A stretch of 41,420 nucleotides of DNA. Origin: a virus. Lineage: Duplodnaviria; Heunggongvirae; Uroviricota; Caudoviricetes. Position 1 is the stretch's first letter, and the number at the start of each line of letters is the position of its first letter. The translations under genes were made by a program, and so were the position numbers. The notes below the pieces were generated by a model. The model ran no database searches, was not told the DNA's origin, and saw only the letters and a list, made by a program, of their open reading frames with translations. Location of the stretch: positions 1 to 41,420 of IMG/VR virus record IMGVR_UViG_2721755647_000003. The stretch is one strand, 5' to 3'. Shown piece by piece: positions 1 through 40,311 of the stretch.

Positions 1-1257
1 GTGCTTACCGATACAAAATTAAAAAACCTCAAGCCGCAGGACAAACTGTACAAAGTCTCCGATCGTGACGGGCTGTATGTAGCTGTGCTTACGTCAGGTA
101 CGGTCTCGTTTCGCTATGACTACCGTATCAACGGTCGCCGCGAAACACTGGTAATTGGGCAGTATGGGCGTGACGGTATCAGCCTGGCAGAAGCGCGAGA
201 AGAACTGATTGCTGCAAAGAAGCTGCTTAAAGCAGGCCAGTCACCGGCTGCGGCTAAACGTGACGGTATCAAAAAGATTCGTGGTGCCGAGACGTTTGCG
301 GTACATACCGACAGTTATATGAAACACGTCATCCTGGCTGACAGTACCCGCGCAATGAAGCAGGCGGTGATCGACCGTGACATACTTCCTGTTCTTGGTA
401 ACAAAATGATGGCTGAAATTACCACATCGATGGTTCGTGATTTGTGTGACCGGATTGTCGAACGCGGCGGCCGGGCAACAGCAGTGCAGGCCAGGGAGAT
501 CATCAGCAGCGTATACCGTCATGCCAATGACCGTGGTCATGGTTTGTTTAATCCTGCTGCTGACATTAAACCTTCGTCTATCGCCATATTTAAACCACGA
601 GAGCGAACACTGACACCAGAAGAAATTGGTCTGTTCTTCCGCACGCTGGATGCCATTGGTGCTATGGGCACTATGAAAATGGCTTTAAAGCTGGTGCTTA
701 TCACTATGGTTCGTAAAGGCGAATTCACCAATGCAACGTGGGACGAAATAGATTTTAAAAAATGGACATGGACAATTCCTTCAGACCGCATGAAGGGAAG
801 CCGGGCGCACGTTATTTACCTGCCTAAACAGGCACAGGATATATTGGTCGGGCTGCAGATGTGCGCTGGTGGAAGTGAATATCTGGTTCCTGGTCGTTAC
901 AACTTCCGGAAGCCATTATCTAATGCCGCGCTGAACTCTCTGATCGACAGAACGGTGAAAATAATAAATGAAAATGGTGAGCATATTCAGGACTTCACCG
1001 TACACGATATGCGCCGTACAGCCAGTACGTTATTGCATGAGGCTGGTTATCCTTCAGACTGGATTGAAAAGGCTCTGGCACATGAGCAGAAAGGTGTGCG
1101 CGCCGTATATAACAAAGCGGAATACGCCAGACAGCGCGCCTACATGTTGCAGCAGTGGGCAGATATGATTGATTCCTGGATTGACGGGGAGCATACGGAT
1201 CTGATTCCGTTCTCCCCGTCGAAGTTTGAGAAGTGGATGGAAGACAGTAATAAATAA
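1..1257 (+). CDS. int: Tyrosine site-specific integrase (P4-like), 418 aa; first codon at window edge, true start may lie 1-2 codons upstream
   Basis: Uninterrupted ORF from GTG at position 1; N-terminal LTDTKLKNLKP...DGLYVAV segment typical of P4-type integrases; C-terminal HDMRRTAST (HxxR) and VYNKAEY (catalytic Tyr) motifs. Confidence 0.9.
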   Translation: MLTDTKLKNLKPQDKLYKVSDRDGLYVAVLTSGTVSFRYDYRINGRRETLVIGQYGRDGISLAEAREELIAAKKLLKAGQSPAAAKRDGIKKIRGAETFAVHTDSYMKHVILADSTRAMKQAVIDRDILPVLGNKMMAEITTSMVRDLCDRIVERGGRATAVQAREIISSVYRHANDRGHGLFNPAADIKPSSIAIFKPRERTLTPEEIGLFFRTLDAIGAMGTMKMALKLVLITMVRKGEFTNATWDEIDFKKWTWTIPSDRMKGSRAHVIYLPKQAQDILVGLQMCAGGSEYLVPGRYNFRKPLSNAALNSLIDRTVKIINENGEHIQDFTVHDMRRTASTLLHEAGYPSDWIEKALAHEQKGVRAVYNKAEYARQRAYMLQQWADMIDSWIDGEHTDLIPFSPSKFEKWMEDSNK

Positions 1258-1259
1258 TT

Positions 1260-1919
1260 CTATCCTTCCTGGACTTTGGTAAGCGTCAGATTTCCGCAGA
1301 ACACTGCGCCGGTGTCGATGTACATTTGGTTTGCATACACCAGTGGGTGATGTGCTGGCGTATGACCGAAGATGAACAAATCGGCACCGGTTATCTCCGA
1401 GACAATACCGTCCTGCGCGTCGCTAACCCGCTCACGATTCCATATCACCATTTCTTCCGGTACTGGCTTATCGAATGCGTATTCGTTGTGCGGGTAGTCT
1501 GCGTGGCAGATGACGACCTTCTTATTGCCGGTAACCAGTTCGATAATCATCGGGAGGTTGGTAACCTTTGGCAGAAGGTATTTGAGTTGCACATCCTGCT
1601 CAGAATCAAGTTGGTGCCACCATCCACCGCCGTTTGACATCCAATGTCCGAAACTTCCGCCGTTGACCAGTGCATCCAGCATCATCTGCTCATGGTTGCC
1701 ACGAACAGCTCGGAACCACGGCATAGTAATCAAATCCAGGCATTCGACGTTTTCAGCGCCGCGGTCAACAAGGTCACCAACGGAAATAAGCAAATCGCGC
1801 GCCGGGTCGAATGAAACTTTGTCGAGTTCGTTCATCAGCAGCGTGTAGCACCCATGCAGATCGCCGACGACGAAGATATTGCACCAGTCAGCGCCATTGA
1901 TGCGTTGATATAGGTTCAT
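1260..1919 (-). CDS. Ser/Thr protein phosphatase, lambda-PPase-like metallophosphoesterase (219 aa)
   Basis: Metallophosphatase motifs GDLHG, GDLVDRG and GNHE all present; ATG at 1919 chosen (MNLYQ...) with GGGAG upstream; start overlaps stop of upstream gene (ATGA). Confidence 0.85.
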
Positions 1920-2566
1920 GCTGCACGCTCCCGCCCCTGGTTGTCTGTTGGTGACAGCGGAGCATTGCTGAATGCATTTGTTAATCCGCCGATATCCAAC
2001 GCGTATCCAGGGTGTAGTTGCACTGCCGGGTCTTCGCACTGATTACCCCAAACATCGAAGCCATGAGACGTCTGGCGGGCGAACAGTTCAATGCGAGAAA
2101 CATCGCCTAATAATTGCACAAGTTTTTCACGAACGATATCTGGCTTTCTTGAATGCTCAAGCCGCGGTGCGGTAAATGACTGAACGATCCCTGCATTAAT
2201 GCGCGTAGGTAGTTTTCCCTTTACCGCAAACAGGCAATCTTCACTATTGGCGCGAGTCATGTGTCCCATACCCATAACCAGTTTATCTGGTTGTCGACTA
2301 CCACATTTTATCCACGTGAATCCCTTCATGGTCATCAGACGGAATCCCCAGGCCTCAACAACTTTTAGTGCTTCGAGTGGTTGTGTTGGCACCCACCACA
2401 TGGCCAACAGACAGTTTTCATCGGCCAAATCCCACACAGGAAGGCGGCAGATATCCAGCACACTCATAACCGGATATTTAAAACCGGCACCGCGATTACC
2501 ATCTGCGGCTTTGTCCCGGTATACCCAGGGTGGATCTGCATAGATTAGTGTGTATTTCTTAGTCAT
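1916..2566 (-). CDS. DNA N6-adenine methyltransferase, MT-A70-like (216 aa)
   Basis: DPPW catalytic motif (IYADPPWVY) near N-terminus; ATG at 2566 preferred over GTG at 2578; translationally coupled to the phosphatase gene. Confidence 0.8.
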
Positions 2567-2810
2567 AAACCACCCCACAACATCCTATGCCGCTATAGTC
2601 GCCACGGCGAAGGCCGTTACCTTTTGTGATACATTGGTCCCTGCGAACCGCGATCCTTGCACGCTCAACATCACCAGAAGCAACATCCATACACTGAAGC
2701 CAAAGGTGAGCGGCAATGCGGAACTGCCCTTTTTTCTCTCTTTCAATCGCGCGTTTTTCGATCTCTATCGCCGCAGGAGTAACGGCGACAATCTTTGACG
2801 GACTGCGCAT
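2559..2810 (-). CDS. Hypothetical small protein (83 aa); start uncertain (alternatives at 2825 or GTG 2858)
   Basis: ORF in track; ATG at 2810 preceded by AAGG; 3' end overlaps the methyltransferase start. Confidence 0.4.
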   Translation of the reverse strand: MRSPSKIVAVTPAAIEIEKRAIEREKKGQFRIAAHLWLQCMDVASGDVERARIAVRRDQCITKGNGLRRGDYSGIGCCGVVYD

Positions 2811-2967
2811 TGAAACCTTGTTCATGTGATATTTTTCAAGTCGGCTTAACTTTCTCACTTAATCCAACCCTCTCTGAAAATTAATGCCAGCAGATAAAGC
2901 CATGCTGAAACAGAGGCCAGGAATAAGTACCATCCTGACCATTTGCTCCAGTGCCTTAGCAGCACAC

Positions 2968-3216
2968 TCATGCCGCGTTGCTCACGGGACGATATACACG
3001 TTGCTGAACATGAGGTTTTTTACCCTGGAACTCTACCGGGCTTGCTGCCTGACGTTCATCAAGCCAACGCTCAACTTCATCACGGTTCCATGCGCAGCGT
3101 TTATCGGTGATATACCATCGTTTAGGAAATTCCCCTGCGCGCTCCATACGGTCGATAGTGCTCCATGACAGTGGAACCACCGCCAGGAGTTCCTTCTTAC
3201 CTAATGCACCTTTCAT
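2968..3216 (-). CDS. AlpA-family HTH regulator / excisionase-like protein (82 aa)
   Basis: Segment LSWSTIDRMERAGEFPKRWYITDKRCAWNRDEVERWL matches the AlpA/Xis-type winged HTH; position next to the integration module. Confidence 0.8.
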   Translation of the reverse strand: MKGALGKKELLAVVPLSWSTIDRMERAGEFPKRWYITDKRCAWNRDEVERWLDERQAASPVEFQGKKPHVQQRVYRPVSNAA

Positions 3217-3265
3217 AAATACCTCTCTTGGTTGCAGTGCGGCGCGCGTGGCGCCGCGGTGGTGG

Positions 3266-4207
3266 TTACATAGATGTTTCGTTTAATTCTTCCCGACGAA
3301 CGCTGTAAACGTCGGTGGCTTTTGCCAGCAGTTCGTCATCATCTGAAAGTTTTTGTGCAATGTATTTGTAAGCCTTATCCAGTTCGGAGACAGTGCTGTA
3401 ATTCATCGCTGCGCTGGTAAAGGCCATCAGCATTTCTTCTGGATCACGGCTGTCCGATTTACGCGTTTGCTCATCAGGCTTTTTCGCTGGTTTAGCGTTG
3501 ATCAGACTGTTCATTCCCGCAGCAGTGGTCGTTTGCGGAGTAATGTCTCGCTCAACGCGCGGTGCCGTTTCCTGTAATTCGTCTGGGGTGTAGACGCCCA
3601 TGATTACGTCAGGACAGTGCAGGCGAGACCAGCGTTTTGTCGCAAGGTATGCGAGTTGTTGTTTCGGATCACTGGCCCAAAGTGTGGAGTTTCTTACCTG
3701 TGCTTGAGACAGCATTAACTCAAGCACTCGAGGTTGATCCTCGCCCTTCATGGTTGCCCATACGCGAACACCGCAGCCTTCTTCGTCTTTTAGAGTCCAG
3801 CCTGGTGCGATATATGGATTGCCGTTTTTGGATGTTTTCTCAACAAACTTACCGATCACGCGTTCCCACGGCCCGAACCACTCGTAGTTGATGCGATCTT
3901 TTGTTGGCGACATCGTTGAGATAACTGCGTTTACTAATTGGGCTTCATAACCTAGCGTGCCGTTCACAACATGGGTTTTCTGAGCCACGGCAAACGGGTT
4001 CATTCCCCACTGCGCAGCCTGCATTGCCACGGCCATGCAATCAGCTGGTTTCCCGGCGAGGTGCGCCGGTACCGTTACGCGGCTTTGCGCCATTACCTCG
4101 GCGAATTTCATCAGTTGGTTCAAGCCGTCTGGGCTGAAAATAGTTGCAGCAGTTCCAGCGATTGCTGTGTCTACTGGTGCGTTGATGTTTGCGATGTCGT
4201 TGCTCAT
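3266..4207 (-). CDS. recT: RecT/Bet-family single-strand annealing protein (313 aa)
   Basis: Resemblance to RecT/Red-beta proteins including an ERDITP segment; ATG at 4207 overlaps stop of upstream exonuclease gene (ATGA); typical partner gene order. Confidence 0.8.
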   Translation of the reverse strand: MSNDIANINAPVDTAIAGTAATIFSPDGLNQLMKFAEVMAQSRVTVPAHLAGKPADCMAVAMQAAQWGMNPFAVAQKTHVVNGTLGYEAQLVNAVISTMSPTKDRINYEWFGPWERVIGKFVEKTSKNGNPYIAPGWTLKDEEGCGVRVWATMKGEDQPRVLELMLSQAQVRNSTLWASDPKQQLAYLATKRWSRLHCPDVIMGVYTPDELQETAPRVERDITPQTTTAAGMNSLINAKPAKKPDEQTRKSDSRDPEEMLMAFTSAAMNYSTVSELDKAYKYIAQKLSDDDELLAKATDVYSVRREELNETSM

Positions 4208-5025
4208 ATGTACATATCCTGTTTGCGTGCCCACTCAGGGCGTTTAATGATTTCCACACCGCCCCATTCATCATTGATGCGGCATTCGTGATAGGTATTC
4301 AGATCCCGGCGGAACAGAGCGTGCCCGGCATCGACATCCTGCGCATCCAGCTCGAACACGCGTACCGGATACCGACCACAATCAATGCTTTCGCTCACGG
4401 CAAGAAAGAAAAAACCATGCGGCTGACCAGTAACCCTCATTGCGCCTTCGCGGTACATTGCGTCCTGCACGTGGTAGCGGAATTCCTCGATGTGGCGTGC
4501 AAAACGGTCCATATCTGCAACCTTTTTCACGTCGACGATCACGTTGTGCTCGTTCAGCCATTTGTCTGGACGAATTCGGCACAACTCCCCCGTCTCTTCA
4601 TCGTTCCAGTACATTGATGCTTCGCAGTAACCAGGTGCTTCCAGCATCCAGCGTGCCGCCGGGTGAGCCATTGCGCTATCACGCATCAGCTCCAGTTTCC
4701 GCCACTGCTCGGCATCAAGTACCGTAATCCCCATATCCGCCACATCACGAAGAAATTCCTCTTCGTCAGCTTTACCTTGTTTCGTCCGACGATCGAATTT
4801 CGGTGAAACAATGAAGCGTTTGTCGAACTCTCCAGGCTCCAGAAGCAGACAGTGCAATGCGGTTCCCATATCCAGTGCAGACTTTTTCTCTTCGTCTTCT
4901 GGTGCTGCCTGAACCCATTTAAGAAGCGCCGGATTCTTGGCAACCATGTCCAGTTGCGACTTACTCACGCCGTCACCGGCGTGGTAGTCTTCGTTGCTGA
5001 TGTCTAAATAAATTCCCGGTTTCAT
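4204..5025 (-). CDS. PD-(D/E)XK-type recombination exonuclease (RecE C-terminal domain / YqaJ-like), 273 aa
   Basis: N-terminus MKPGIYLDISNEDYHAGDGVSKSQL typical of phage exonuclease VIII-like nucleases; immediately upstream of and coupled to the RecT-like gene. Confidence 0.7.
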   Translation of the reverse strand: MKPGIYLDISNEDYHAGDGVSKSQLDMVAKNPALLKWVQAAPEDEEKKSALDMGTALHCLLLEPGEFDKRFIVSPKFDRRTKQGKADEEEFLRDVADMGITVLDAEQWRKLELMRDSAMAHPAARWMLEAPGYCEASMYWNDEETGELCRIRPDKWLNEHNVIVDVKKVADMDRFARHIEEFRYHVQDAMYREGAMRVTGQPHGFFFLAVSESIDCGRYPVRVFELDAQDVDAGHALFRRDLNTYHECRINDEWGGVEIIKRPEWARKQDMYI

Positions 5026-5321
5026 GCCGCGTCCCTCTGCCCATCAAGCTGATCAGCCAGATCCCAGCGGGCGATAATTGCCATTGCCTCGCGCCGGTAG
5101 GCATCCATTAGTTCTTCGAACTCAGGGCTGTCTTTAGCGGCCTCCAGTACTTCCTGGCGAACGCCTTTAACTGTTACAACGTCGAAAGTTGATGCCAGTT
5201 GATGAAGCCGGATACTCTCAATCAGTTCAACTTGTCGGTCATATAGCTGTTCTGACAGACGGTAGTCCTTGTCGAATGCCAGCATGATTTTTTGAAGATT
5301 TTTCTGCTGATTAACGTTCAT
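5022..5321 (-). CDS. Hypothetical early protein (99 aa)
   Basis: ATG at 5321 (MNVNQQ...) preceded by GGGAGGG; stop overlaps exonuclease start. Confidence 0.55.
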   Translation of the reverse strand: MNVNQQKNLQKIMLAFDKDYRLSEQLYDRQVELIESIRLHQLASTFDVVTVKGVRQEVLEAAKDSPEFEELMDAYRREAMAIIARWDLADQLDGQRDAA

Positions 5322-5323
5322 TA

Positions 5324-5476
5324 TCAGCCCTCCCATATCTCGTTATCGTTGGCCACATCGCGAGCTTCTTTGCTGACGAAAGCCCACTTAATGCCTTCCT
5401 GTAAGGTGCGGAACTTCCAGCTCATGAATCCGCATGCAGTTACGCAGTACCAACCGTTGATGATTTTCCACTGCAT
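5324..5476 (-). CDS. Small Cys/Trp-rich ORF (50 aa), not in the ORF track; possible Kil-like early-left protein
   Basis: ATG at 5476 to TGA at 5324, read by hand (MQWKIINGWYCVTACGF...); GAGG upstream; first ORF downstream of the PL-like operator cluster. Confidence 0.3.
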   Translation of the reverse strand: MQWKIINGWYCVTACGFMSWKFRTLQEGIKWAFVSKEARDVANDNEIWEG

Positions 5477-5482
5477 AACTTG

Positions 5483-5572
5483 TTACCTCGGTCTGTTACC
5501 GTTGAGGTAATAATTATGCGTATATGGTTTGATGTCAATAGATATGAGTTAAAAAAATTACCCGTTAGGTAA
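5483..5572. promoter_or_regulatory. Left operator cluster: half-site TTACC at 5483, perfect TTACC-N5-GGTAA at 5496-5510 and 5558-5572
   Basis: Exact inverted repeats read from sequence; lie between the repressor gene terminator and the leftward early genes, the PL/OL position. Confidence 0.55.
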
Positions 5573-5583
5573 TCGAATAGGCA

Positions 5584-5607
5584 ATAAAAAAGCCGCCATA
5601 AGGCGGC
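5584..5607 (-). terminator. Intrinsic terminator downstream of the repressor gene
   Basis: Minus strand reads GCCGCC-TTAT-GGCGGC followed by TTTTTTATT. Confidence 0.6.
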
Positions 5608-5629
5608 TTACTTACTGAAAAATATGGTT

Positions 5630-6214
5630 TTATTGTTTGTTTTTTTCGTTCTGGTTGATGACAAATTCAATGTAACTTTCGATCTTTGCTTTCTCGGTTT
5701 CGGGTAACAATGCGTAGCGCGAGCGATCATAGTTGATGGTCGCAGGGTCGTGCGGGTGAATCAGTAATTCATAGCCGTGACGCCCGAATGCGGATGCAAC
5801 ATTCTCCAGGGTGGAAATGGAAACGCTGACCTCATTGTTTAACAGGCGGCTGATTGTCACCTGGGCTACGCCGGATGCGCGGTGAAGTTTTCCCTGTGTT
5901 GAAAGGTCGCGGCTTTCGCTCATCCAGCGTTCCAGGTTGTGAGCCGCCAGCTGGCCAATGTCGCTTGGGCCGACAGGCTGAAAACCTTCCTGAGAAAGCG
6001 AGCGATCGATATCAAGCCAGTTACGGGGTTTATTGGCGGCAGCTTCAATTTTTCGTGCAACCTGGTCGCCGATAACCTTCTTGCCAAGAGCCCAGCGGTT
6101 TACCAGATTTGCCTGAGTTCCAAGTTTTTCAGCCATCCGCGTCTGAACACCATTGAATTCACGGTCGATCAAGTCGTTGAGATTTTGCCTGCGGACGTCC
6201 TGGATACTTTTCAT
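5630..6214 (-). CDS. Prophage repressor, CI-like, with two HTH (XRE-type) segments and no recognisable S24 peptidase domain (194 aa)
   Basis: HTH-like segments MAEKLGTQANLVNRWALGKK and VAQVTISRLLNNEVSVSISTLENVASAFG; divergent from a Cro-like gene; no GDSM-type Ser/Lys autocleavage motif seen. Confidence 0.75.
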   Translation of the reverse strand: MKSIQDVRRQNLNDLIDREFNGVQTRMAEKLGTQANLVNRWALGKKVIGDQVARKIEAAANKPRNWLDIDRSLSQEGFQPVGPSDIGQLAAHNLERWMSESRDLSTQGKLHRASGVAQVTISRLLNNEVSVSISTLENVASAFGRHGYELLIHPHDPATINYDRSRYALLPETEKAKIESYIEFVINQNEKNKQ

Positions 6215-14921: not shown

Positions 14922-14998
14922 TGGCGTGGCATGCAGGATTCGAACCTGCGACCAACCGCTTAGAAGGCGGTTGCTCTGTCCGACTGAGCTAATGCCAC
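14922..14998 (-). tRNA. tRNA-Arg, anticodon UCU (77 nt, CCA encoded)
   Basis: Cloverleaf folded by hand: acceptor GTGGCAT/ATGCCAC, D-stem GCTC/GAGC, anticodon stem ACCGC/GCGGT with loop CTTCTAA, T-stem GCAGG/CCTGC, T-loop TTCGAAT, discriminator G, CCA. Confidence 0.85.
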
Positions 14999-28932: not shown

Positions 28933-31481
28933 TGGCAGCAAACGAATTTTTGACGCAGTGCGAGCGCAGTGTAAATGCTGCCGCTGGTCGCGAGCTTTCT
29001 TCCGATGAGATGGAGTCGCTGGTGCGTGACATGAACGACACCACTAGGCGAATTCTGGCGACCAATGAGGCGCTGTCTCTGGAAGAGGCCGCGATGCGCG
29101 CAGCGGAAGAACTGAGCAATGCCGATATGCTGGCAAAACAGATTGAGGCTCGCAATAAGGCAATCAACACCCGTATTGCCGCACAACGACTTAGAGAGCT
29201 TCGTACTATCTGGAAAGACCGCCCGGATATCGGGCTTGAAGCAATGCTGGTTGGCCGCAACGATGCGCGTACCGGCGCCCGCCGGTCGGTATCTTCGGAG
29301 GTGGCGCAACTGCGCGGCAAGTATCATTCCGGTATCAACTACGATTTTGACCGTGCCGGGCTGGTGCAATTCATCGCCAGCGGCAGCAATGACAGGGAAA
29401 TTGCCGATGCAATGTGGCGCATAGGGCGCGGGCAGTCAACTGACGGTATGACAAAGCAATCCGTAAGCGCTGCACAAATCATCATGAAATGGCAGGAAAC
29501 TGCGCGCATTGATGAGAACCGCGCCGGGGCATGGATACGCAAAGAGCCGGGCTATATAGTGCGCCAGTCACACGACATCATGAAGATCCGCGCCGCAGGT
29601 TATGAAGCATGGCGAAATGCTATTCTCCCGCGCCTTGATGAGCGCACTTTTGACGGCGTGGCTGACCGCGAGCAGTTCATGCGTAACATTTATAACGGGC
29701 TGGCTTCCGGCGTGCATCTTACATCTGAAAAGCCAGATTGGATGAATGGCTTTAAGGGATCGGCGAACGCAGCTAAACGCGCCAGCCAAGAGCGAATTTT
29801 GCACTTCAAAGATGGTATCTCGTGGCACGAGTACAACCAGCAATTCGGCACCGGCAGCCTGCGAGAGGCGCTGTTTGGTGGCTTAAACAGCGCTGCCCGC
29901 ACAACGGGCATGATGCGCGTACTGGGCACTAACCCACAGAACATGTTTAAGTACCTGACGGACACCATTGCTGAAGATATCAGCAAATCCGGAAGACCGG
30001 CAGCGTTGGCTGACTACATGACGAAGGTGCGTCGCATTAACCGTACCGTAATGCCGCAGGTTGACGGCTCGCTAAATATTCCTGGCAGCGTAGGCTGGGC
30101 CAATGCGTCGGCGGCTGTACGCGGCTGGTTGCGTATGAGCCAGCTTGGTGGCGCGGTAATCTCATCGTTTAACGACGTGCCTATCGCCGCTACCGAGATG
30201 CGCTACCAAGGGCAGAATTTTATGCAGGCGTTGCTTGGTGCTATGAGAGGCCGCTTCACGCGTTACAACAGCGCGGAGCAGAAAGAGATCCTTTCCTCTA
30301 TCGGAGTTTATTCCGACTCCATGACGCAGGAAATCATCCGGCGCATATCTGGTGATGACACGCTGAATGGAAAACTTGGTCGCGCGCAGCAGCTTTTCTT
30401 TAAGTACAACCTCATGAACTTCTGGACCGAGAGCGGTCGTAACAGCAACGCCATGATGATAACCAACTGGCTTGCAAAGAATGCTGACCAGTCTCATGCG
30501 CGGCTACCGGAAGACCTGCGACGCGTGCTGGATCTGCACGGTATTGGCGAACGTGAGTGGGAAATTTTTCGTAACATGGACATGGCCGATAGCGAAGGTC
30601 GTAAGTTCATGACGACCAGCGGCATGCGCGGCGTGCCTGACGAAGTGATTGCCGGTTATGTAGAGAGTAAGGGGATCAAACCAACGCAGCGCGCTATCGC
30701 TGACGCACGCGATCAATTGGAAGGGCAGTTGCGCGGCTACATCCTTGACCGCCTGAATATCGCCATGTCAGAGCCTGGCGATCGCACGCAGGCGTTTATG
30801 AAGATGGGCACGGTGCCAGGAACGGTGGCTGGGGAAGCAATACGATTCGCTGGTCAATACAAATCGTTCACTGCAAGCTTCATGCAGAACGTACTAGGAC
30901 GCGAAGTATTCGGGCGTGGTTATATTCCTGCTGGGCTTGGTGAGTCGAAAACCGGATCGCTGACGAATGCGCTGCTACGTAACGGGAAGGGGGCTTTCCT
31001 TGGTGCTGCAAACCTCTTTGTCTGGGCGACTATGTTTGGTTATATCTCCATGCAGTCAAAACTCATGCTGAAAGGGCAAACACCACGCCCGGCAGATGCC
31101 AAGACGTTTCTCGCAGCCGCATCTCAGGGGGGCGGTCTTGGCATCTTGGGTGACTTCATGTTTGGCGAGGTCAACCGCATGGGGGCCGGGCCGGTTACGT
31201 CGCTAATGGGACCGGCAGCATCGAACGCTGACAGCATTATCACGCTGCTCCAGCAGACCACGAGAGGGGATGCAGATTTGGGTGACTGGTATCGCACGGC
31301 ACTTGACAATACGCCATTCCTCAACGTGTTCTGGCTTCGTACGGCGATGAATGGTTTAATATTGAACAGGATACAAGATGCCCTTGACCCAGGCTCTCTT
31401 GAGCGTTATCAGCGCCGTGTTGAGCGTGAGCAGGGTAACGACTTTCTGATCCCACCATCGCAGTTCATGCTAGGTAAATAA
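28932..31481 (+). CDS. Internal virion / DNA ejection protein (849 aa), gp16-position
   Basis: Large ORF coupled to the previous gene; last gene of the GC-rich structural block. Confidence 0.6.
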   Translation: MAANEFLTQCERSVNAAAGRELSSDEMESLVRDMNDTTRRILATNEALSLEEAAMRAAEELSNADMLAKQIEARNKAINTRIAAQRLRELRTIWKDRPDIGLEAMLVGRNDARTGARRSVSSEVAQLRGKYHSGINYDFDRAGLVQFIASGSNDREIADAMWRIGRGQSTDGMTKQSVSAAQIIMKWQETARIDENRAGAWIRKEPGYIVRQSHDIMKIRAAGYEAWRNAILPRLDERTFDGVADREQFMRNIYNGLASGVHLTSEKPDWMNGFKGSANAAKRASQERILHFKDGISWHEYNQQFGTGSLREALFGGLNSAARTTGMMRVLGTNPQNMFKYLTDTIAEDISKSGRPAALADYMTKVRRINRTVMPQVDGSLNIPGSVGWANASAAVRGWLRMSQLGGAVISSFNDVPIAATEMRYQGQNFMQALLGAMRGRFTRYNSAEQKEILSSIGVYSDSMTQEIIRRISGDDTLNGKLGRAQQLFFKYNLMNFWTESGRNSNAMMITNWLAKNADQSHARLPEDLRRVLDLHGIGEREWEIFRNMDMADSEGRKFMTTSGMRGVPDEVIAGYVESKGIKPTQRAIADARDQLEGQLRGYILDRLNIAMSEPGDRTQAFMKMGTVPGTVAGEAIRFAGQYKSFTASFMQNVLGREVFGRGYIPAGLGESKTGSLTNALLRNGKGAFLGAANLFVWATMFGYISMQSKLMLKGQTPRPADAKTFLAAASQGGGLGILGDFMFGEVNRMGAGPVTSLMGPAASNADSIITLLQQTTRGDADLGDWYRTALDNTPFLNVFWLRTAMNGLILNRIQDALDPGSLERYQRRVEREQGNDFLIPPSQFMLGK

Positions 31482-31483
31482 TA

Positions 31484-32044
31484 ATGAAGGCAATTATATT
31501 TTTTGTTTCAATATTGATGTCTGCATTTTCTTTTGCAGGGCAAAATGTTAAATGCGAACTTCAATACTTTGGAGATAGCGATAAATTTAAGGTAACTCAG
31601 TTTTCTTTTATGGGGATTCCATCTGATTCATACCTTTATACCTGTGCCGACTGTGGAGGCATCCAGATAAACGTGTTCCCATCTATTCAGACTGTTGCTT
31701 CCTACTCATTTGAAAACAACATTGATTTCGAAAGGAAAATCAATGCTGAATACAACAGAAAAGACATAGCTAAACTTGAGATGGAAAACGTTACTCAAGG
31801 CGGGAGAATAAAATATTCAATCACCGATACTGGTTTGGCAGAGTTTTACCCAGAGGGCAAAAAGATAAGCTACCTCTACTTTTTAGCCAAGCAACAAAAT
31901 GGTAAAGAACAAGTAGGTTATTCAGGATTTGTTACCTCTAACGGGGATAAGTCATGCTCAATTATTGCGACATATCCAGGAAAAGAAATTTCTTTTCTGG
32001 GAAGTAAATCTCTAAGCTACTTTATGAATCATATATCAATGTAG
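31484..32044 (+). CDS. AT-rich secreted protein of unknown function (186 aa), signal peptide predicted by eye
   Basis: N-terminal MKAIIFFVSILMSAFSFAGQ hydrophobic signal; Cys-containing mature part; marked AT-richness relative to neighbours. Confidence 0.6.
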   Translation: MKAIIFFVSILMSAFSFAGQNVKCELQYFGDSDKFKVTQFSFMGIPSDSYLYTCADCGGIQINVFPSIQTVASYSFENNIDFERKINAEYNRKDIAKLEMENVTQGGRIKYSITDTGLAEFYPEGKKISYLYFLAKQQNGKEQVGYSGFVTSNGDKSCSIIATYPGKEISFLGSKSLSYFMNHISM

Positions 32045-32045
32045 C

Positions 32046-32057
32046 GTGACATGTCAC
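32046..32057. repeat. Perfect 12-bp palindrome GTGACATGTCAC (copy 3)
   Basis: Exact sequence; 1 nt after the TAG stop, directly followed by a terminator hairpin. Confidence 0.9.
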
Positions 32058-32083
32058 AGGCCGCTTTCGCGGCCTTGTTTTTT
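32058..32083 (+). terminator. Intrinsic terminator after the secreted-protein gene
   Basis: AGGCCGC-TTTC-GCGGCCT followed by TGTTTTTT. Confidence 0.65.
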
Positions 32084-32160
32084 AACGAATGCCGCCTCCG
32101 CCCGGGCGGGAATCCGCAGAACGCCCACCGCAGCGGGAGCCGTCAGCGGCAGTATCGTTG

Positions 32161-32673
32161 TTATACTATTGAATTAAATGATATCTTGTCCTTAATATCA
32201 TTAAGTTTGCCATATATCTTTTTTGCATAAGAATCAGCTTCCTCAATAAACTTCGACTTCTCATTATCAGGCATATTTTTGAAGGTATGTGCACATGTAT
32301 ATTGAGAGTAGTAATTGTGAAACTTGTTATACAAATTATTGAGTTCTTGTAAGTCTTTTTTATACTCAGGAAGGTATATGTTTATTAGCATTTCCATCGT
32401 TTGCAACGGATTGACTTTTGATGTGTCAAATTTACTACCAGAGTGGTAACTGGCATTGTTAACAAAATTGAGAATAGCCACTTCGCTTGAAGCTATGACT
32501 TTTTCAGTAAGTATGCAATTTGTGAATAATTGCTCACGTTTATCTCTTAATATTTTTTCGCGCTCTAATTTTATGCTGTTTTTGTATCCTTGCCTTGCAC
32601 TTATGTAAGTAGAAACTATAGCAATAACTGCACCTATCAATGCGCCTAAGATAGTATTATCCATATAAGCCAC
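32161..32673 (-). CDS. AT-rich membrane-anchored protein of unknown function (170 aa; one N-terminal TM helix, then coiled-coil-like domain)
   Basis: Hydrophobic TILGALIGAVIAIVSTYI segment; Lys/Asn/Tyr-rich remainder; third gene of a minus-strand operon. Confidence 0.6.
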   Translation of the reverse strand: MAYMDNTILGALIGAVIAIVSTYISARQGYKNSIKLEREKILRDKREQLFTNCILTEKVIASSEVAILNFVNNASYHSGSKFDTSKVNPLQTMEMLINIYLPEYKKDLQELNNLYNKFHNYYSQYTCAHTFKNMPDNEKSKFIEEADSYAKKIYGKLNDIKDKISFNSIV

Positions 32674-32689
32674 CTAAACTGCGTAAAAA

Positions 32690-33553
32690 TTATTTCCTGC
32701 CACTTCTGTAGTATATGTTGCGACCATTTTTGGTCACATTAACAACATGCCCCTTTGTTTCTACTTTGTTATTTGTTGCCTTATATACTTCAAAGTCAAA
32801 CCATGATATATGACTTATTTCGTCTATAGATACCATAATTTCTAGACCTTGAACTTTCTTTTTGCTTATCCCTTTTATCGCAGCACTGCGCTTAATTTGG
32901 ATTTCACCTGGGTAAGCGTTTGTAAATGTAACAGATAAATTTTCTTTGTTTCTGTACCCTGACATTAAAGGAACAAAAGATATGTGTTGGTGTGGCCCTT
33001 GATTTTCCGTTAGCTCACCAGAACCATTTATTATTCCAACGTATACTTTATTTGATGATAAAGTAATTAACATTGGTTTCTTAGGATCTGATTCGATTGC
33101 ATCAAGCAATAGCAAATCTAAAGAACCCTGGGAGTACGTTTTTCGCAATACTCTAGCTTTCATTGCCTCTGATATTTTGTCATAAATATCACGTTTATAA
33201 AAACAACCTAAAAGAAGATCTTTTAGCCAAACAAAAGATACATAACACAAAGAGAAGCAAATTGATGTGGCTGAGAGAAGAAGCAGCCACATGTAAATTC
33301 TATCTGTTTCTGGTTTTGATGTTACATTAAAAGTTTCCACCATATCGTGAACTAGGTGAAAATCAGGCCATTTATATTTTATAGCGGCTGCAATTATTAC
33401 TGATGCAACAAGGCAATATGTACCTAGTGCCGCTACCTTCATATAAAGAAGCTGGCCTTCGTGTCGGTATAAACGGAAATAATGATACTGGTTAGCGGTT
33501 ATCATAATATAACCGCTAACCAGGATTGGGATAATTAGAAGAGCTAGCAACAC
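32690..33553 (-). CDS. AT-rich integral membrane protein of unknown function (287 aa; about 3 TM helices plus C-terminal soluble domain)
   Basis: Three hydrophobic segments in the first 110 residues; GTG start overlapping the upstream stop (TAGTG). Confidence 0.6.
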   Translation of the reverse strand: MLLALLIIPILVSGYIMITANQYHYFRLYRHEGQLLYMKVAALGTYCLVASVIIAAAIKYKWPDFHLVHDMVETFNVTSKPETDRIYMWLLLLSATSICFSLCYVSFVWLKDLLLGCFYKRDIYDKISEAMKARVLRKTYSQGSLDLLLLDAIESDPKKPMLITLSSNKVYVGIINGSGELTENQGPHQHISFVPLMSGYRNKENLSVTFTNAYPGEIQIKRSAAIKGISKKKVQGLEIMVSIDEISHISWFDFEVYKATNNKVETKGHVVNVTKNGRNIYYRSGRK

Positions 33554-33762
33554 TACTTCCTTACAGTGGCAAGATCCTGTTTAACAATTGCAGCAGCGAG
33601 ACGACGCATCTCCTTAACCTCAGGAAGCTCAGAAATTTGCTGTGATGAGATATATACTCCACCACGCTTGTTAACCTGCGCTGACGCCGGAACTTCTGCA
33701 TTTTTTGCCTGAGGGCTGGGTGCATTATCCCTCGTTTTTGTACGAGCGAACCAAAATCCCAT
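33553..33762 (-). CDS. Small basic protein (69 aa), first gene of the AT-rich operon; possible DNA-binding or regulatory protein
   Basis: ATG at 33762 with strong GAGGAGG RBS; operator palindrome 27 bp upstream. Confidence 0.6.
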   Translation of the reverse strand: MGFWFARTKTRDNAPSPQAKNAEVPASAQVNKRGGVYISSQQISELPEVKEMRRLAAAIVKQDLATVRK

Positions 33763-33788
33763 ATCTCCTCCTCATGTAAACACATGGT

Positions 33789-33803
33789 TTACCTTTAAGG
33801 TAA
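33789..33803. promoter_or_regulatory. Perfect palindrome TTACC-TTTAA-GGTAA upstream of the AT-rich operon
   Basis: Exact sequence; a TAATAT -10-like hexamer lies immediately upstream on the minus strand. Confidence 0.55.
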
Positions 33804-33868
33804 TATTACGCGAATCTACATCACATCGCCAATGATTATTTTAAAGGCACATCCCTGTGCCGCCGCCG

Positions 33869-34579
33869 TCAGAAGAACCCTGCCTTGTCGTTGATGTACT
33901 CCGCGTGGGTCTGGATATCACGCAGGCATTTACTCACACCGACGATGTAGCAGAACATGGTGGTCAGCTCCGCCGCCGCGCCCGATACATCGTGCCCGTC
34001 TTCCTGTAACTGGTTTAGCAGATTCATCAGCAGTGAGTTCTCCGTCAGGCCGAGAACACCAGACGGCGAATGAATCAGGCTACGGTAGCCGGGCTTCAGT
34101 GGGGCACTGTAGGTTTTGTTCTCTATCTTCATCGCCTGCATTACTGCTGACGCCGTGGCGTTGGCTACCTGGTCGGCAACCATCTTTATGCGTTCTTCCT
34201 GCGGGAGCGAGTTTTTAATGTAGCTTCCGGTGCGGCGGATCTGAGGAAGAACCTCACCTGTAACCCATTTACGAAAGCGGTAGGGGATAGTGCCTGGTGT
34301 CACCGCATCGCGGCAGCGGAGGATCAGTGTGTAGAGGCCTGACTCGGAGATGATGTTGATCTCTTTTACTCGGCTGTCAAAAATTGCACGATGTTCATGC
34401 CCTATGTTGAACATAGACCTTTCATCATCATCCAGTTTTTCAAGTGCTTGGGTGACGTTTTGGATACGCAGCGCACTACAAACGTCTTGGGCTACAAACC
34501 ATGGTTGGCCATCGATAATGATGGAACGGATAGGGTTAACAGATTCAAATTTGAAGATGGCAGTTTGAGCATTAGCCAT
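33869..34579 (-). CDS. Bro-N domain antirepressor-like protein (236 aa)
   Basis: N-terminal FKFESVNPIRSIIIDGQPWFVAQDVCSALRIQN...ESGLYTLILRC Bro-N pattern; ATG at 34579 with GGAGAT RBS. Confidence 0.75.
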   Translation of the reverse strand: MANAQTAIFKFESVNPIRSIIIDGQPWFVAQDVCSALRIQNVTQALEKLDDDERSMFNIGHEHRAIFDSRVKEINIISESGLYTLILRCRDAVTPGTIPYRFRKWVTGEVLPQIRRTGSYIKNSLPQEERIKMVADQVANATASAVMQAMKIENKTYSAPLKPGYRSLIHSPSGVLGLTENSLLMNLLNQLQEDGHDVSGAAAELTTMFCYIVGVSKCLRDIQTHAEYINDKAGFF

Positions 34580-34733
34580 GGTGGTTATCTCCACTTAGTG
34601 ATTTTAATCACCACCGCAACGCCAATTACTGGTGGTGAACTGGACAAGGTTGGCGTACCGGCCTAAGTGGTACCGGCGTCCTTTCGGACCCCTGCCCAGC
34701 CCACCATAATTCGGATATAGCTGTGCTTAACGC

Positions 34734-34758
34734 ATAAAAAAACCACGTCTGGCGTGGT
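34734..34758 (-). terminator. Intrinsic terminator between the two Bro-related genes
   Basis: Minus strand reads ACCACG-CCAGA-CGTGGT followed by TTTTTTTAT. Confidence 0.5.
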
Positions 34759-34848
34759 ATGCGCCACTTAGTAACTCGGGACGCCAATCCCGGCACTGGA
34801 TTTTGCCAGTACCCGATTACTATGGCACAAGAGGAGTGCGATGTAAAT

Positions 34849-34863
34849 TTACCGCAAAGGTAA
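34849..34863. promoter_or_regulatory. Perfect palindrome TTACC-GCAAA-GGTAA
   Basis: Exact sequence, in the intergenic region between the two Bro-related genes. Confidence 0.5.
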
Positions 34864-34894
34864 ATATAAGCACTCCACTTGGTAATTGCAAACC

Positions 34895-35152
34895 TTATCT
34901 GGTTTGTTTTCGTAATTGTTCGGCACAATAGTCGAGATGTGTTTGCAGATCCCGCATAGACATCTGTGAGCTGGTGACGTAGTTAATCAGTGCAGTCAGT
35001 TCGGCAAGTGGGCCATCGACATTAAATCCATCCTTATCGAGATCCCGGAGTAATTTCATCAAGTGCGATCCCTCCACCAGTGACCTGACGCCTCCCGGCG
35101 TGTGAATCCTTTCGGTAAATCCGTCTTCCAGTGGATAGTGATACTGCTGCAT
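34895..35152 (-). CDS. Small protein (85 aa) homologous to the C-terminal domain of the adjacent Bro-N protein
   Basis: Aligns by eye to the Bro-N protein C-terminus (TPGGVRSLVEGSHLMKLLRDL...MRDLQTHLDYC versus SPSGVLGLTENSLLMNLLNQL...LRDIQTHAEYI); ATG at 35152 with GGAG RBS. Confidence 0.6.
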   Translation of the reverse strand: MQQYHYPLEDGFTERIHTPGGVRSLVEGSHLMKLLRDLDKDGFNVDGPLAELTALINYVTSSQMSMRDLQTHLDYCAEQLRKQTR

Positions 35153-35228
35153 CTTATCTTCTCCATGCAATAACTGTATAAATATACAGTATCAAATAAT
35201 TTGTTTGCTATCCAGCACGTTTTGCAAA

Positions 35229-35243
35229 TTACCTGAAAGGTAA
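35229..35243. promoter_or_regulatory. Perfect palindrome TTACC-TGAAA-GGTAA upstream of the tail fibre gene (identical to the 15321 copy)
   Basis: Exact sequence; TATGTGGTTTTT plus a GGTAAT half-site follow at 35275-35294. Confidence 0.55.
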
Positions 35244-35347
35244 TATCTTTTCGTATTTATGGGTTATCTATCCATATGTGGTTTTTCAGGTAATAGAATA
35301 ACCAGATATGCGGCGCAACGGGTGCTGCGACTATCTGGAGATTTAAC

Positions 35348-38104: not shown

Positions 38105-38333
38105 ACATTGAGGATTAATCTTAGTAGCCGGATTGCTTATTACGAAGTAAGTTCGGCTTCTTTCTTCTTTAATTGTGACTGAGAGGTACACTAGACCATT
38201 TTCTGAACGAAATTTTCATTGCCGTAGAAGGCAGAAATACAGCGTTTTGAGGTAACTATTATCCTTAAATGGTTTATTATGTGTGCATCTTCAATAGTAA
38301 GGAGATTGTTATGCGTAATAAACGGTGTTCATT

Positions 38334-40131: not shown

Positions 40132-40285
40132 CATGGCATTTTTCATGGTACTGATTTCCGGTGACGGTATATAAAACGGTACGAGAAAAATTCATCTTTG
40201 GAAAAATGTTATCACTCAATTGGTTATGGTATCCGTAAATAATTGAGTGGGAATGATTTGAACCCTGCACTATGAATGAACAAAA

Positions 40286-40311
40286 CCCTCTGTTACTACA
40301 GAGGGTTTTTT
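40286..40311. terminator. Bidirectional intrinsic terminator between the lysis cassette and the convergent lipoprotein genes
   Basis: CCCTCTG-TTACTA-CAGAGGG followed by TTTTTT on the plus strand, A-run on the other side. Confidence 0.65.

What the first reader, a model, noticed from the sequence alone, without database searches (positions are those of the whole stretch)
1260..2858. Phosphatase, adenine methyltransferase and small ORF form a coupled module next to the integrase
A lambda-PPase-type Ser/Thr phosphatase, an MT-A70-like N6-adenine methyltransferase and a small unknown ORF are packed with overlapping stop/start codons on the minus strand beside int. An orphan methyltransferase with no partner endonuclease suggests anti-restriction or epigenetic host modulation; the phosphatase may manipulate host signalling. 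Pairing them in one operon at the prophage edge is notable.
Basis: partly seen in the sequence, partly recalled or inferred. Interest (0 to 1): 0.42.

Follow-up and report, generated by a model that had tools for sequence, protein, structure and literature searches.

The report
Prophage phosphatase, methylase and PerC genes
The three genes are real, but they are ordinary, already-annotated accessory genes at the far end of a long early operon of a common phiV10-type E. coli prophage, and the phosphatase sits beside the methyltransferase only because one gene cassette was swapped in.

Summary
On the minus strand lie a lambda NinI-type Ser/Thr phosphatase (1260-1919), an MT-A70 adenine methyltransferase (1916-2566) and a 99-aa ORF (2559-2858), with 4-, 8- and 4-nt overlaps, next to int.

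The small ORF is a PerC-family protein that is a backbone gene of epsilon15/phiV10-type (Uetakevirus) phages.

The trio is not a discrete module. It is the distal end of a nine-gene early-left operon (recE/recT, xis and others) in which all but one junction overlap. The promoter is flanked by repressor-operator palindromes.

The phosphatase is a transplanted lambdoid ninI gene in a variable cargo slot. It replaces the DUF1382 gene of phiV10. It is present in 141 of 5426 complete E. coli genomes, among about 540 records that match this stretch at 95% identity or more. None of 80 phosphatase loci from other species has an MT-A70 gene nearby.

The methyltransferase is 83% identical to the Stx-phage enzyme M.EcoPA8orf6770P, which its authors call highly similar to M.EcoGV. 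GATC DNA methylation is reported for M.EcoGV and 16S rRNA methylation for the Stx enzyme with its partner PNB-2. This prophage lacks PNB-2, and the C-terminal tail differs.

The orphan status is correct, but I found no evidence of functional pairing. Interest is low.

The parts
1..1257 (+). Tyrosine integrase (P4-type), convergent with the operon. The prophage lies next to guaA.
   Evidence: Pfam Arm-DNA-bind_3, Phage_int_M and Phage_integrase. A 99.8% identical locus in E. coli DSM 103246 reads guaB-guaA-int.
1241..1913 (.). Exchanged cargo cassette: the phosphatase gene plus the last codons of int. It replaces the DUF1382 gene of phiV10.
   Evidence: Alignment with phiV10 and PAS61. Homology stops after ...GAGAAGTGGATGG in int and resumes at the shared ATGAA at the methyltransferase stop.
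1260..1919 (-). Lambda NinI-type Ser/Thr(/Tyr) metallophosphatase, 219 aa
   Evidence: 1G5B E = 7e-100 and 66.8% identity. D20, H22, D49, R53, N75, H76, H139, R162 and H186 are all kept. PHROG 246, NinI-like. Below the NCBIfam PrpA and PrpB equivalog cut-offs.
1916..2566 (-). Stand-alone MT-A70 (beta-class) N6-adenine methyltransferase, 216 aa, DPPW at residues 11-14. The catalytic domain spans about residues 1-187, followed by a 29-aa lineage-specific tail.
   Evidence: Pfam MT-A70 covers profile positions 1-172 of 172. PDB hits to the Tetrahymena MT-A70 family protein and METTL3. 83% identical over residues 1-187 to Stx-phage gp5. The primer and terminator of Gong et al. match that locus.
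1916..1966 (-). Conserved 3' end of the methyltransferase gene, carrying the Shine-Dalgarno sequence and ATG for whatever cargo gene follows. It is the boundary sequence for cassette exchange.
   Evidence: The last 51 nt are 96% identical to Enterobacter phage Tyrion, against 58-83% in the rest of the gene. The sequences diverge completely right after ATGAA.
2559..2858 (-). PerC-family small protein, 99 aa from GTG 2858. It is a backbone gene of Uetakevirus phages.
   Evidence: Pfam PerC 30.1 bits (cut-off 22.6). PHROG 868 matches 1-99 of 99. 36 phage records hold it, all at 80% coverage or more. The epsilon15 homologue starts at the equivalent codon.
2855..2971 (-). 38-aa membrane protein gene
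   Evidence: PHROG 17484. Annotated in phiV10 and epsilon15.
2968..3216 (-). AlpA-family excisionase/regulator
   Evidence: Pfam Phage_AlpA; PHROG 66.
3239..3257 (-). GC-rich 7-bp hairpin with no U-tract, in the only intergenic gap of the operon
   Evidence: Read and folded (not better than shuffles, z = -1.3). Epsilon15 annotates a 'pausing' stem-loop at the same place.
3266..5025 (-). RecT (3266-4207) and RecE-like PD-(D/E)XK exonuclease (4204-5025)
   Evidence: Annotation of 98-99% identical loci. Junction overlaps.
5022..5476 (-). The first two small genes of the operon (99 aa and 50 aa), function unknown
   Evidence: PHROG 856 and 898. Annotated in phiV10.
5496..5572 (-). Early-left promoter-like site (TTGACA-17-AATTAT, 5538-5510) flanked by two perfect TTACC-N5-GGTAA palindromes (5558-5572 and 5496-5510)
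   Evidence: The same palindrome is the curated 'repressor' binding site in epsilon15 NC_004775.2.
5590..6214 (-). Repressor gene (5630-6214, HTH_3) and its terminator (5609-5590), which separate it from the early-left operon
   Evidence: Annotated in phiV10.

Best explanation
The region is the promoter-distal end of the repressor-controlled early-left operon of a phiV10/epsilon15-type (Uetakevirus) prophage integrated beside guaA. That operon also carries the recombination and excision genes.

It encodes three proteins that are unrelated in ancestry and move independently:
1. A PerC-family small protein that belongs to the phage backbone.
2. A stand-alone MT-A70 N6-adenine methyltransferase, orthologous to Stx-phage gp5 (M.EcoPA8orf6770P), which its authors call highly similar to M.EcoGV.
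3. A lambda NinI-type Mn-dependent protein phosphatase.

A single cassette exchange put the phosphatase into the hypervariable cargo slot between the methyltransferase and int. The exchange used the conserved 3' end of the methyltransferase gene and the 3' end of int as recombination boundaries.

The overlapping stop and start codons are the general packing style of the whole operon. They give co-expression after induction or infection, not a dedicated three-protein machine.

Inferred functions, not shown here:
- The methyltransferase uses SAM to make m6A, most likely at GATC in replicating phage DNA. Its Stx-phage relative is also reported to act on 16S rRNA.
- The phosphatase removes phosphate from host or phage phosphoproteins during lytic growth.
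- The PerC-family protein is a phage regulator.
For: Gene models and junctions:
-. Overlaps of 4, 4, 4, 4, 8 and 4 nt and a 2-nt spacer; the only real gap is 49 nt.

Operon control:
- On the minus strand between 5590 and 1260 the scan finds no terminator-like site and, apart from the early-left promoter itself at 5538-5510, no promoter-like site.
- The promoter at 5538-5510 is flanked by TTACC-N5-GGTAA palindromes identical in type to the curated repressor sites of epsilon15.

Backbone or cargo:
- PerC is present in all 36 related phage records.
- The methyltransferase is present in epsilon15, SPN1S, Tyrion and a Klebsiella phage, but with DUF1317, a winged-helix protein or a DGQHR protein between it and PerC.
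- The slot next to int holds DUF1382, the phosphatase, Ant plus a hypothetical gene, or other small genes.

Cassette boundaries:
-.

Origin of the phosphatase:
- The closest relatives (70-79% identity) are all in a NinE-NinI-NinG context.
- None of 80 loci has an MT-A70 gene nearby.

Frequency:
- 141 of 5426 complete E. coli genomes carry the phosphatase version, out of about 540 records matching the stretch at 95% identity or more.

Methyltransferase orthology and published activities:
-; Gong et al. 2023, PMC10810198; Forde et al. 2019, PMC6602927.
Against: - No expression data were available. Repression in the lysogen rests on a consensus scan and on homology to annotated epsilon15 operators. 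A weak internal or stationary-phase promoter, as reported for Stx-phage gp6-gp5, cannot be excluded.
- The substrate of the methyltransferase is not established even for its characterised orthologue (GATC DNA against 16S rRNA).
- The biological role of lambda NinI itself is unknown.
- The 141 genomes show that the phosphatase version is maintained and spreads, so some benefit of this combination cannot be ruled out.
Confidence: 0.78

Rival explanations
1. One reading: the three genes form a functionally coupled host-manipulation or anti-restriction module. It would be expressed from the prophage edge, with the orphan methyltransferase reprogramming the host epigenome or protecting DNA and the phosphatase rewiring host signalling.
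For: - Orphan methyltransferase with no nuclease partner.
- Intact phosphatase active site.
- Tight translational coupling.
- The arrangement persists at 98% identity or more in 141 genomes.
- The Stx-phage orthologue does change lysogen behaviour, raising spontaneous induction.
Against: - The pairing arose in one lineage only, by cassette replacement of DUF1382.
- None of 80 phosphatase loci elsewhere has an MT-A70 gene.
- Most methyltransferase-bearing relatives lack the phosphatase.
- No separate promoter was found, and the operon promoter carries repressor operators.
- The overlaps are operon-wide.
Confidence: 0.08
2. The methyltransferase is primarily a 16S rRNA m6A methyltransferase that tunes translation and spontaneous prophage induction, as reported for the Stx-phage phiPA8 gp5-PNB-2 holoenzyme, rather than a DNA methyltransferase.
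For: - 83% identity over the catalytic domain to gp5.
- The locus identity is confirmed by the paper's primer and terminator sequences.
- The closest solved structures include RNA m6A enzymes such as METTL3.
- In vitro, gp5 alone acts only weakly on DNA.
Against: - In that study the rRNA preference needed PNB-2. PNB-2 is absent here, and the gene in its position (PerC) is not homologous to it.
- The C-terminal tail, which the authors propose contacts PNB-2, is replaced.
- M.EcoGV, which the authors describe as highly similar to gp5, methylated GATC in DNA when over-produced alone.
- The modified rRNA base was never identified.
Confidence: 0.2
3. The PerC-family protein is the specificity or targeting subunit of the methyltransferase in this phage, a functional replacement for PNB-2, translationally coupled to it through the 8-nt overlap.
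For: - It occupies the position of PNB-2, immediately upstream and overlapping.
- According to Gong et al., MT-A70 enzymes typically work as heteromers.
- In relatives the upstream neighbour is often a small nucleic-acid-binding protein: the winged-helix protein gp30 in Tyrion, or DGQHR in SPN1S and E. coli 98203.
Against: - PerC is a backbone gene. In epsilon15, SPN1S, Tyrion, the Klebsiella phage and E. coli 98203 it is separated from the methyltransferase by one to two other genes.
- The same methyltransferase tail occurs with three different upstream genes.
- More distant homologues follow a DnaB helicase, a DUF4060 protein or unknown ORFs.
- The PerC-methyltransferase junction looks like the product of a deletion at the shared ATGACTAA start.
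Confidence: 0.06

Closest known systems
Bacteriophage lambda Ser/Thr protein phosphatase (NinI / ORF221; PDB 1G5B) and E. coli PrpA/PrpB
   Same: Same length and fold family. 66.8% identity over 217 residues. The GDxHG, GDxVDRG and GNHE motifs and all nine catalytic or metal residues are conserved.
   Different: The genomic position differs. Lambda-type and enterobacterial relatives sit between ninE and ninG in the rightward nin region. Here the gene is the last one of the leftward operon, next to int. It scores below the NCBIfam equivalog cut-offs for PrpA and PrpB.
Stx-phage phiPA8 gp5 (M.EcoPA8orf6770P), described by its authors as highly similar to M.EcoGV; with PNB-2, the '16S rRNA methyltransferase' of Gong, Chakraborty and Koudelka 2023 (PMC10810198)
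   Same: 83% identical MT-A70 catalytic domain, including the N-terminal [14 protein letters not shown]. Both lie a few genes from int in a leftward operon. In phiV10 and in Stx phages alike, the gene is followed by a DUF1382 gene.
   Different: There is no PNB-2 homologue. The C-terminal 29 residues are unrelated to the 21-residue Stx tail. No terminator or promoter sits immediately upstream. The downstream gene is a phosphatase.
Early-left operons of phiV10 and epsilon15 (genus Uetakevirus)
   Same: Same gene order from the repressor to int, 98% nucleotide identity to phiV10-type phages, and the same operator palindrome.
   Different: The phosphatase replaces DUF1382. Epsilon15 and Tyrion keep DUF1317 or other genes between PerC and the methyltransferase.
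PerC / Pch family regulators of EPEC and EHEC (Pfam PF06069); ANR family
   Same: Passes the Pfam PerC gathering score. The core (residues 35-80) is predicted to be a helical hairpin.
   Different: Only profile positions 5-50 of 90 match. It scores below the ANR cut-off. It is conserved in phages of Salmonella, Klebsiella and Enterobacter, hosts that as far as I know lack the LEE island, so a LEE-activating role is unlikely (inference).
Orphan phage adenine methyltransferases (P1 Dam, T4 Dam, VT2-Sa Dam, M.EcoGII)
   Same: Works like them in outline: no cognate nuclease, phage-borne, and expected to be silent or weakly expressed in the lysogen.
   Different: A different structural class from Dam: a minimal MT-A70 domain of 216 aa with no separate target-recognition domain detected.

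Membership tests
Lambda-type PPP metallophosphatase (NinI/PrpA/PrpB) | Signature motifs GDxHG, GDxVDRG and GNHE, and the metal and catalytic residues D20, H22, D49, R53, N75, H76, H139, R162, H186 (lambda numbering) | tested here: met
   All nine residues are identical at the aligned positions. The alignment to 1G5B is full length, E = 7e-100.
Lambda-type PPP metallophosphatase (NinI/PrpA/PrpB) | NCBIfam equivalog score for PrpA (NF008516) or PrpB (NF007425) | tested here: not met
   266 bits against a cut-off of 326, and 221 against 332. It is a NinI-like paralogue, not a PrpA or PrpB equivalog.
Lambda-type PPP metallophosphatase (NinI/PrpA/PrpB) | Location in the nin region (ninE-ninI-ninG) of a lambdoid phage | tested here: not met
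   Here it lies between the methyltransferase and int. The relatives at 70-79% identity, and lambda, are in nin context.
Lambda-type PPP metallophosphatase (NinI/PrpA/PrpB) | Mn2+-dependent phosphoprotein phosphatase activity | not testable with these tools
   Needs an enzyme assay.
MT-A70 / beta-class N6-adenine methyltransferase | Pfam PF05063 above the gathering score, with the catalytic DPPW motif | tested here: met
   80 bits against 23.9, covering profile positions 1-172 of 172. DPPW is at residues 11-14.
Restriction-modification system | A cognate restriction endonuclease gene adjacent to the methyltransferase | tested here: not met
   The neighbours are a phosphatase and a PerC-family protein. 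PADLOC gives only MTase_II hits. The methyltransferase is therefore an orphan.
Stx-phage gp5-PNB-2 rRNA methyltransferase holoenzyme | Catalytic subunit orthologous to M.EcoPA8orf6770P | tested here: met
   156 of 187 residues identical, E = 4e-124. The locus identity is confirmed by the paper's primer and terminator.
Stx-phage gp5-PNB-2 rRNA methyltransferase holoenzyme | PNB-2 partner encoded immediately upstream | tested here: not met
   There is no BLASTP alignment between the upstream PerC-family protein and PNB-2.
Stx-phage gp5-PNB-2 rRNA methyltransferase holoenzyme | The STEC-type C-terminal tail proposed to be needed for PNB-2 binding | tested here: not met
   The alignment ends at residue 187 and the tails are unrelated.
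Stx-phage gp5-PNB-2 rRNA methyltransferase holoenzyme | Preferential methylation of 16S rRNA | not testable with these tools
   Needs biochemistry.
PerC family (PF06069) | Pfam score above the gathering threshold | tested here: met
   30.1 bits against 22.6, but only profile positions 5-50 of 90 match.
PerC family (PF06069) | Transcriptional activation (of ler/LEE1 in EPEC) | not testable with these tools
   No DNA-binding or partner assay is possible. The structure model was too poor to use.
ANR family (NF033650) | NCBIfam score above the cut-off | tested here: not met
   23.6 bits against 32.
Uetakevirus (phiV10/epsilon15) early-left operon | Collinear gene order from repressor to int, with TTACC-N5-GGTAA operators at the promoter | tested here: met

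The most novel reading that the evidence does not exclude
The phage MT-A70 enzyme is a bare catalytic core whose substrate (DNA GATC or 16S rRNA) is set by interchangeable small proteins encoded just upstream. These would be PNB-2 in Stx phages, a winged-helix protein in Tyrion, and a DGQHR/DndB-like protein in SPN1S and some E. coli prophages. In this prophage the translationally coupled PerC-family protein would take that role, or the enzyme would work alone. Either way, the phiV10-type prophages found in roughly a tenth of complete E. coli genomes would be a natural experiment for settling the disputed substrate of this enzyme family.
Probability: 0.07. Interest if true: 0.5.

Novelty: already known. 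Interest (0 to 1): 0.17.

Why it matters
It matters little as a discovery. The same gene trio is already deposited and correctly named in phage vB_EcoP_PAS61 (also deposited in phage BP9) and in 141 RefSeq E. coli genomes, and each protein belongs to a well-described family.

Two points are useful:
1. The locus is a clean example of how a defined cargo slot works. It is bounded by a conserved gene end that supplies the ribosome-binding site and start codon, and it lets phages swap accessory genes without disturbing operon translation.
2. The methyltransferase is a close orthologue of the Stx-phage enzyme whose substrate is disputed, and it occurs here naturally without the PNB-2 partner. That makes it a convenient comparison enzyme.

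Tried and rejected
- AlphaFold2 on single sequences failed for the PerC-family protein (mean pLDDT 48) and the methyltransferase (mean pLDDT 32). I therefore ran no fold search. I ran no further search on building alignments, because the family assignments were already unambiguous.
- A PDB sequence search with the PerC-family protein gave nothing meaningful.
- PADLOC gave no defence-system hit for the phosphatase, PerC, the 38-aa protein or AlpA.
- I tested whether the methyltransferase C-terminal tail co-varies with the upstream partner, which would support a partner-binding tail. I rejected it: the same tail occurs with PerC, with a winged-helix protein and with DGQHR.
- The winged-helix protein gp30 of Tyrion is not detectably similar to PNB-2.
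- GATC counts in the prophage are 145 observed against 157 expected from base composition and 202 expected from a Markov model. This mild under-representation is not interpretable, so I did not use it.
- Literature searches for a biological role of NinI, or for phage phosphatases acting as anti-defence factors, found nothing usable.
- Fang et al. 2012, the primary source for M.EcoGV, is not held. I cite it second-hand through.
- The hairpin at 3257-3239 folds no better than shuffled sequence (z = -1.3), so I do not claim it is a terminator.
Full report
**What is there**

The window is a prophage of the phiV10/epsilon15 type (genus Uetakevirus).
- Bases 1-6000 are 96-99% identical to Escherichia phages BP9, vB_EcoP_PAS61, phiV10 and others.
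- A 99.8% identical copy in E. coli DSM 103246 lies directly after guaB-guaA.
- The last 1.1 kb of the window (40350-41420) carries a DUF5384 gene and a glycine-zipper lipoprotein gene beyond the lysis cassette. These are probably host flank.

Reading the minus strand gives these genes:
- phosphatase, 1260-1919 (219 aa);
- MT-A70 methyltransferase, 1916-2566 (216 aa);
- a 99-aa ORF, 2559-2858 (GTG start);
- a 38-aa membrane protein, 2855-2971;
- an AlpA-type excisionase, 2968-3216;
- RecT, 3266-4207;
- a RecE-like nuclease, 4204-5025;
- two small unknown ORFs, 5022-5321 and 5324-5476.

int (1-1257) is on the plus strand and convergent. Only two bases separate its stop codon from the phosphatase stop codon.

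**Check of the observation**

The phosphatase ATG overlaps the methyltransferase TGA (ATGA). The methyltransferase ATG lies 8 nt inside the small ORF. The small ORF's GTG overlaps the preceding TGA.

The phosphatase:
- It matches Metallophos, and the lambda phosphatase structure 1G5B over its full length (E = 7e-100).
- Identity is 66.8%, and all nine catalytic or metal residues are kept.

The methyltransferase:
- It covers the whole MT-A70 profile and has DPPW at residues 11-14.
- Its nearest solved relatives are the Tetrahymena MT-A70 family protein and METTL3.
- Four profile libraries detect no extra domain that could be a target-recognition domain. Apart from the catalytic domain there is only a 29-residue tail.

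The 'small unknown ORF':
- It is a PerC-family protein: Pfam 30.1 bits against a cut-off of 22.6, and PHROG 868 matched from residue 1 to 99.
- The 99-aa form starting at GTG 2858 is better supported than the shorter forms in RefSeq. Conservation in epsilon15, SPN1S, Tyrion and Klebsiella phages starts at residue 1-4, and the epsilon15 homologue starts at the equivalent codon.

**The trio is not a separate module**

- Every junction from 5476 down to 1260 is an overlap of 4-8 nt or a 2-nt spacer. The one exception is a 49-nt gap before the excisionase gene. That gap holds a GC-rich hairpin without a U-tract, and the hairpin folds no better than shuffled sequence.
- The consensus scan finds no other promoter-like site and no terminator-like site on the minus strand between 5590 and 1260.
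- The only promoter-like site is TTGACA-17-AATTAT at 5538-5510, just downstream of the repressor gene's terminator (5609-5590).
- That promoter is flanked by two perfect TTACC-N5-GGTAA palindromes, at 5558-5572 and 5496-5510.
- The same palindrome is the curated 'repressor' binding site at the corresponding promoter of epsilon15.

I infer that all nine genes are one repressor-controlled early transcript. The three genes would then be made after induction or infection, not in the quiet lysogen. This step is inferred from sequence and homology, not shown.

**Comparative anatomy**

PerC is a backbone gene. All 36 related phage records carry it at full length.

The methyltransferase is widespread in the group, but it is not always next to PerC:
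- epsilon15 has a 35-aa remnant ORF between the two genes;
- the Klebsiella phage has DUF1317;
- Tyrion has DUF1317 plus a 75-aa winged-helix protein;
- SPN1S has DUF1317 and a DGQHR (DndB-like) protein;
- E. coli 98203 has a DGQHR protein.

PerC ends with ...TATGACTAA in the window, and DUF1317 (MTN...) and this methyltransferase (MTK...) both begin with Met-Thr. The direct PerC-methyltransferase junction in phiV10-type phages therefore looks like the product of a deletion (inference).

More distant homologues of the methyltransferase follow a DnaB helicase, a DUF4060 protein or unknown ORFs. I found no constant partner.

**The phosphatase is swapped-in cargo**

- phiV10 and most E. coli prophages of this type carry a 64-aa DUF1382 gene where the window has the phosphatase. 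One prophage has Ant plus a hypothetical gene. Epsilon15, SPN1S, Tyrion and the Klebsiella phage have yet other small genes.
- Homology between the window and phiV10 stops within the last codons of int, after ...GAGAAGTGGATGG at about 1240. It resumes exactly at the shared ATGAA formed by the methyltransferase stop and the downstream start.
- The last 51 nt of the methyltransferase gene carry the Shine-Dalgarno sequence and the ATG of whatever follows. They are 96% identical between the window and Enterobacter phage Tyrion, against 58-83% in the rest of the gene. The sequences then diverge completely. This is a conserved boundary sequence for cassette exchange.
- The nearest relatives of the phosphatase (70-79% identity; Enterobacter, Scandinavium, Citrobacter, Atlantibacter and others) and the lambda-type copy in K-12 all sit in the NinE-NinI-NinG region.
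- None of 80 phosphatase loci from different species has an MT-A70 gene within 3 kb.
- Among phage records, only BP9 and PAS61 carry this allele.
- Among 5426 complete E. coli genomes, 141 carry the phosphatase version. About 540 records match the queried stretch (1100-3300) at 95% identity or more.

The pairing is therefore one recent event that has spread. It is not a recurrent association.

**What the methyltransferase is related to**

- It is 83% identical over residues 1-187 to the methyltransferase of Stx2a phages.
- That Stx gene is gp5, or M.EcoPA8orf6770P, of Gong, Chakraborty and Koudelka (PMC10810198). Their mutagenesis primer and the terminator they describe between gp7 and gp6 both match the fetched Stx locus.
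- They report that gp5 alone has weak, non-specific activity.
- They report that it forms a 1:1 complex with the upstream product PNB-2, and that the complex prefers 16S rRNA.
- They report that the enzyme raises spontaneous induction and virulence.
- They also note that M.EcoGV, which they call highly similar, methylated GATC in DNA when over-produced. REBASE-based annotation lists M.EcoGV as GATC-specific.
- In the window there is no PNB-2. The upstream PerC-family protein shows no similarity to it.
- The C-terminal tail, which the authors suspected of binding PNB-2, is replaced by an unrelated 29-residue tail.
- That tail is the same in phages whose upstream gene is PerC, a winged-helix protein or DGQHR. 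This argues against a partner-specific tail here.

**Most likely mechanism**

After derepression the early-left transcript yields the recombination proteins, the excisionase, PerC, the methyltransferase and the phosphatase together.

- I consider the methyltransferase most likely a stand-alone m6A DNA methyltransferase, probably acting at GATC. It would keep rapidly replicating phage DNA fully methylated (inference from the reported M.EcoGV activity). rRNA methylation is a real alternative, which I put at about 0.2.
- The phosphatase should be an active Mn-dependent protein phosphatase. Its targets are unknown, as they are for lambda NinI.
- The role of PerC is unknown. Its conservation in phages of Salmonella, Klebsiella and Enterobacter suggests a phage-internal regulatory role rather than LEE activation.
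- Nothing indicates that the three proteins act on one another.

**Verdict**

The 'coupled module' idea is not supported.

The genes are already deposited, and correctly named in PAS61 and in RefSeq. Interest is low.

The one thread worth keeping is that this is a natural PNB-2-less orthologue of an enzyme whose substrate is disputed.

Noticed in passing
window 5496, 5558, 6270, 6318, 6655, 8595, 8657, 12124, 12142, 15321, 31846, 32435, 33789, 34849, 35229, 38458 (15-mers): The palindrome TTACC-N5-GGTAA occurs 16 times (at most one mismatch) against 0.6 expected. It occurs not only at the immunity region but across the genome. It is the motif annotated as the repressor operator in epsilon15, so one regulator may control many transcription units.
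   Followed up: partly
window 1255-1262: The convergent stop codons of int and the phosphatase gene are 2 nt apart with no terminator between them. Early-left transcripts should therefore run antisense through int. phiV10 has the same layout with 3 nt.
   Followed up: no
window 34628-34812 (-) and 33869-34594 (-): Rfam finds a C4 antisense RNA (66 bits) and an isrK RNA (63.5 bits) directly upstream of a Bro-N/Ant-type gene. This looks like a P1/P7-style antisense-controlled anti-repressor unit, a second layer of immunity.
   Followed up: no
window 32161-33553 (-) and 31484-32044 (+): These genes (170, 287 and 186 aa) have no Pfam or PADLOC match and only 'unknown function' PHROGs. They lie at the start of the window's low-G+C stretch (kilobases 31001-34000 are 36-45% G+C, lowest at 32001-33000). 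They are possible moron or defence cargo.
   Followed up: partly
window 35348-38104 (+): The 918-aa tailspike has a C-terminal Peptidase_S74 chaperone domain and a low G+C content (37-39% over kilobases 36001-38000). No phage record matches more than 56% of the window's right arm (30000-41420), and phiV10 matches only 30% of it, so the host-recognition part of the prophage may have been exchanged.
   Followed up: no
window 40350-41420 (-): A DUF5384 gene and a glycine-zipper/TraT-like lipoprotein gene lie after the Rz gene. They are probably host flank beyond attR. The homologous gene in phage record TL-2011b is annotated 'DNA methyltransferase', which looks like a mis-annotation.
   Followed up: partly
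window 14922-14998 (-): A tRNA-Arg (anticodon TCT) gene lies inside the prophage (ARAGORN; Rfam 73 bits).
   Followed up: no
L003 2517-3512; L006 1491-2558; L010 3463-3690: In relatives the gene immediately upstream of the MT-A70 gene, and overlapping it, is a DGQHR (DndB-like) protein (SPN1S, E. coli 98203) or a small winged-helix protein (Tyrion gp30). Tyrion also has a second, weakly similar winged-helix gene just downstream. These could be methyltransferase partners analogous to PNB-2.
   Followed up: partly
window 2559-2858 (-): RefSeq and PGAP annotate the PerC-family gene as 83 or 88 aa from internal ATGs. Conservation from residue 1 and the GTGA overlap support the 99-aa form.
   Followed up: yes
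L004 2774-3004 versus L005 2648-3004: Two Stx2a phages with the same methyltransferase carry different upstream ORFs that share only the last roughly 20 residues (...LYIDEFENAL). The PNB-2 position is therefore itself mosaic within Stx phages.
   Followed up: no
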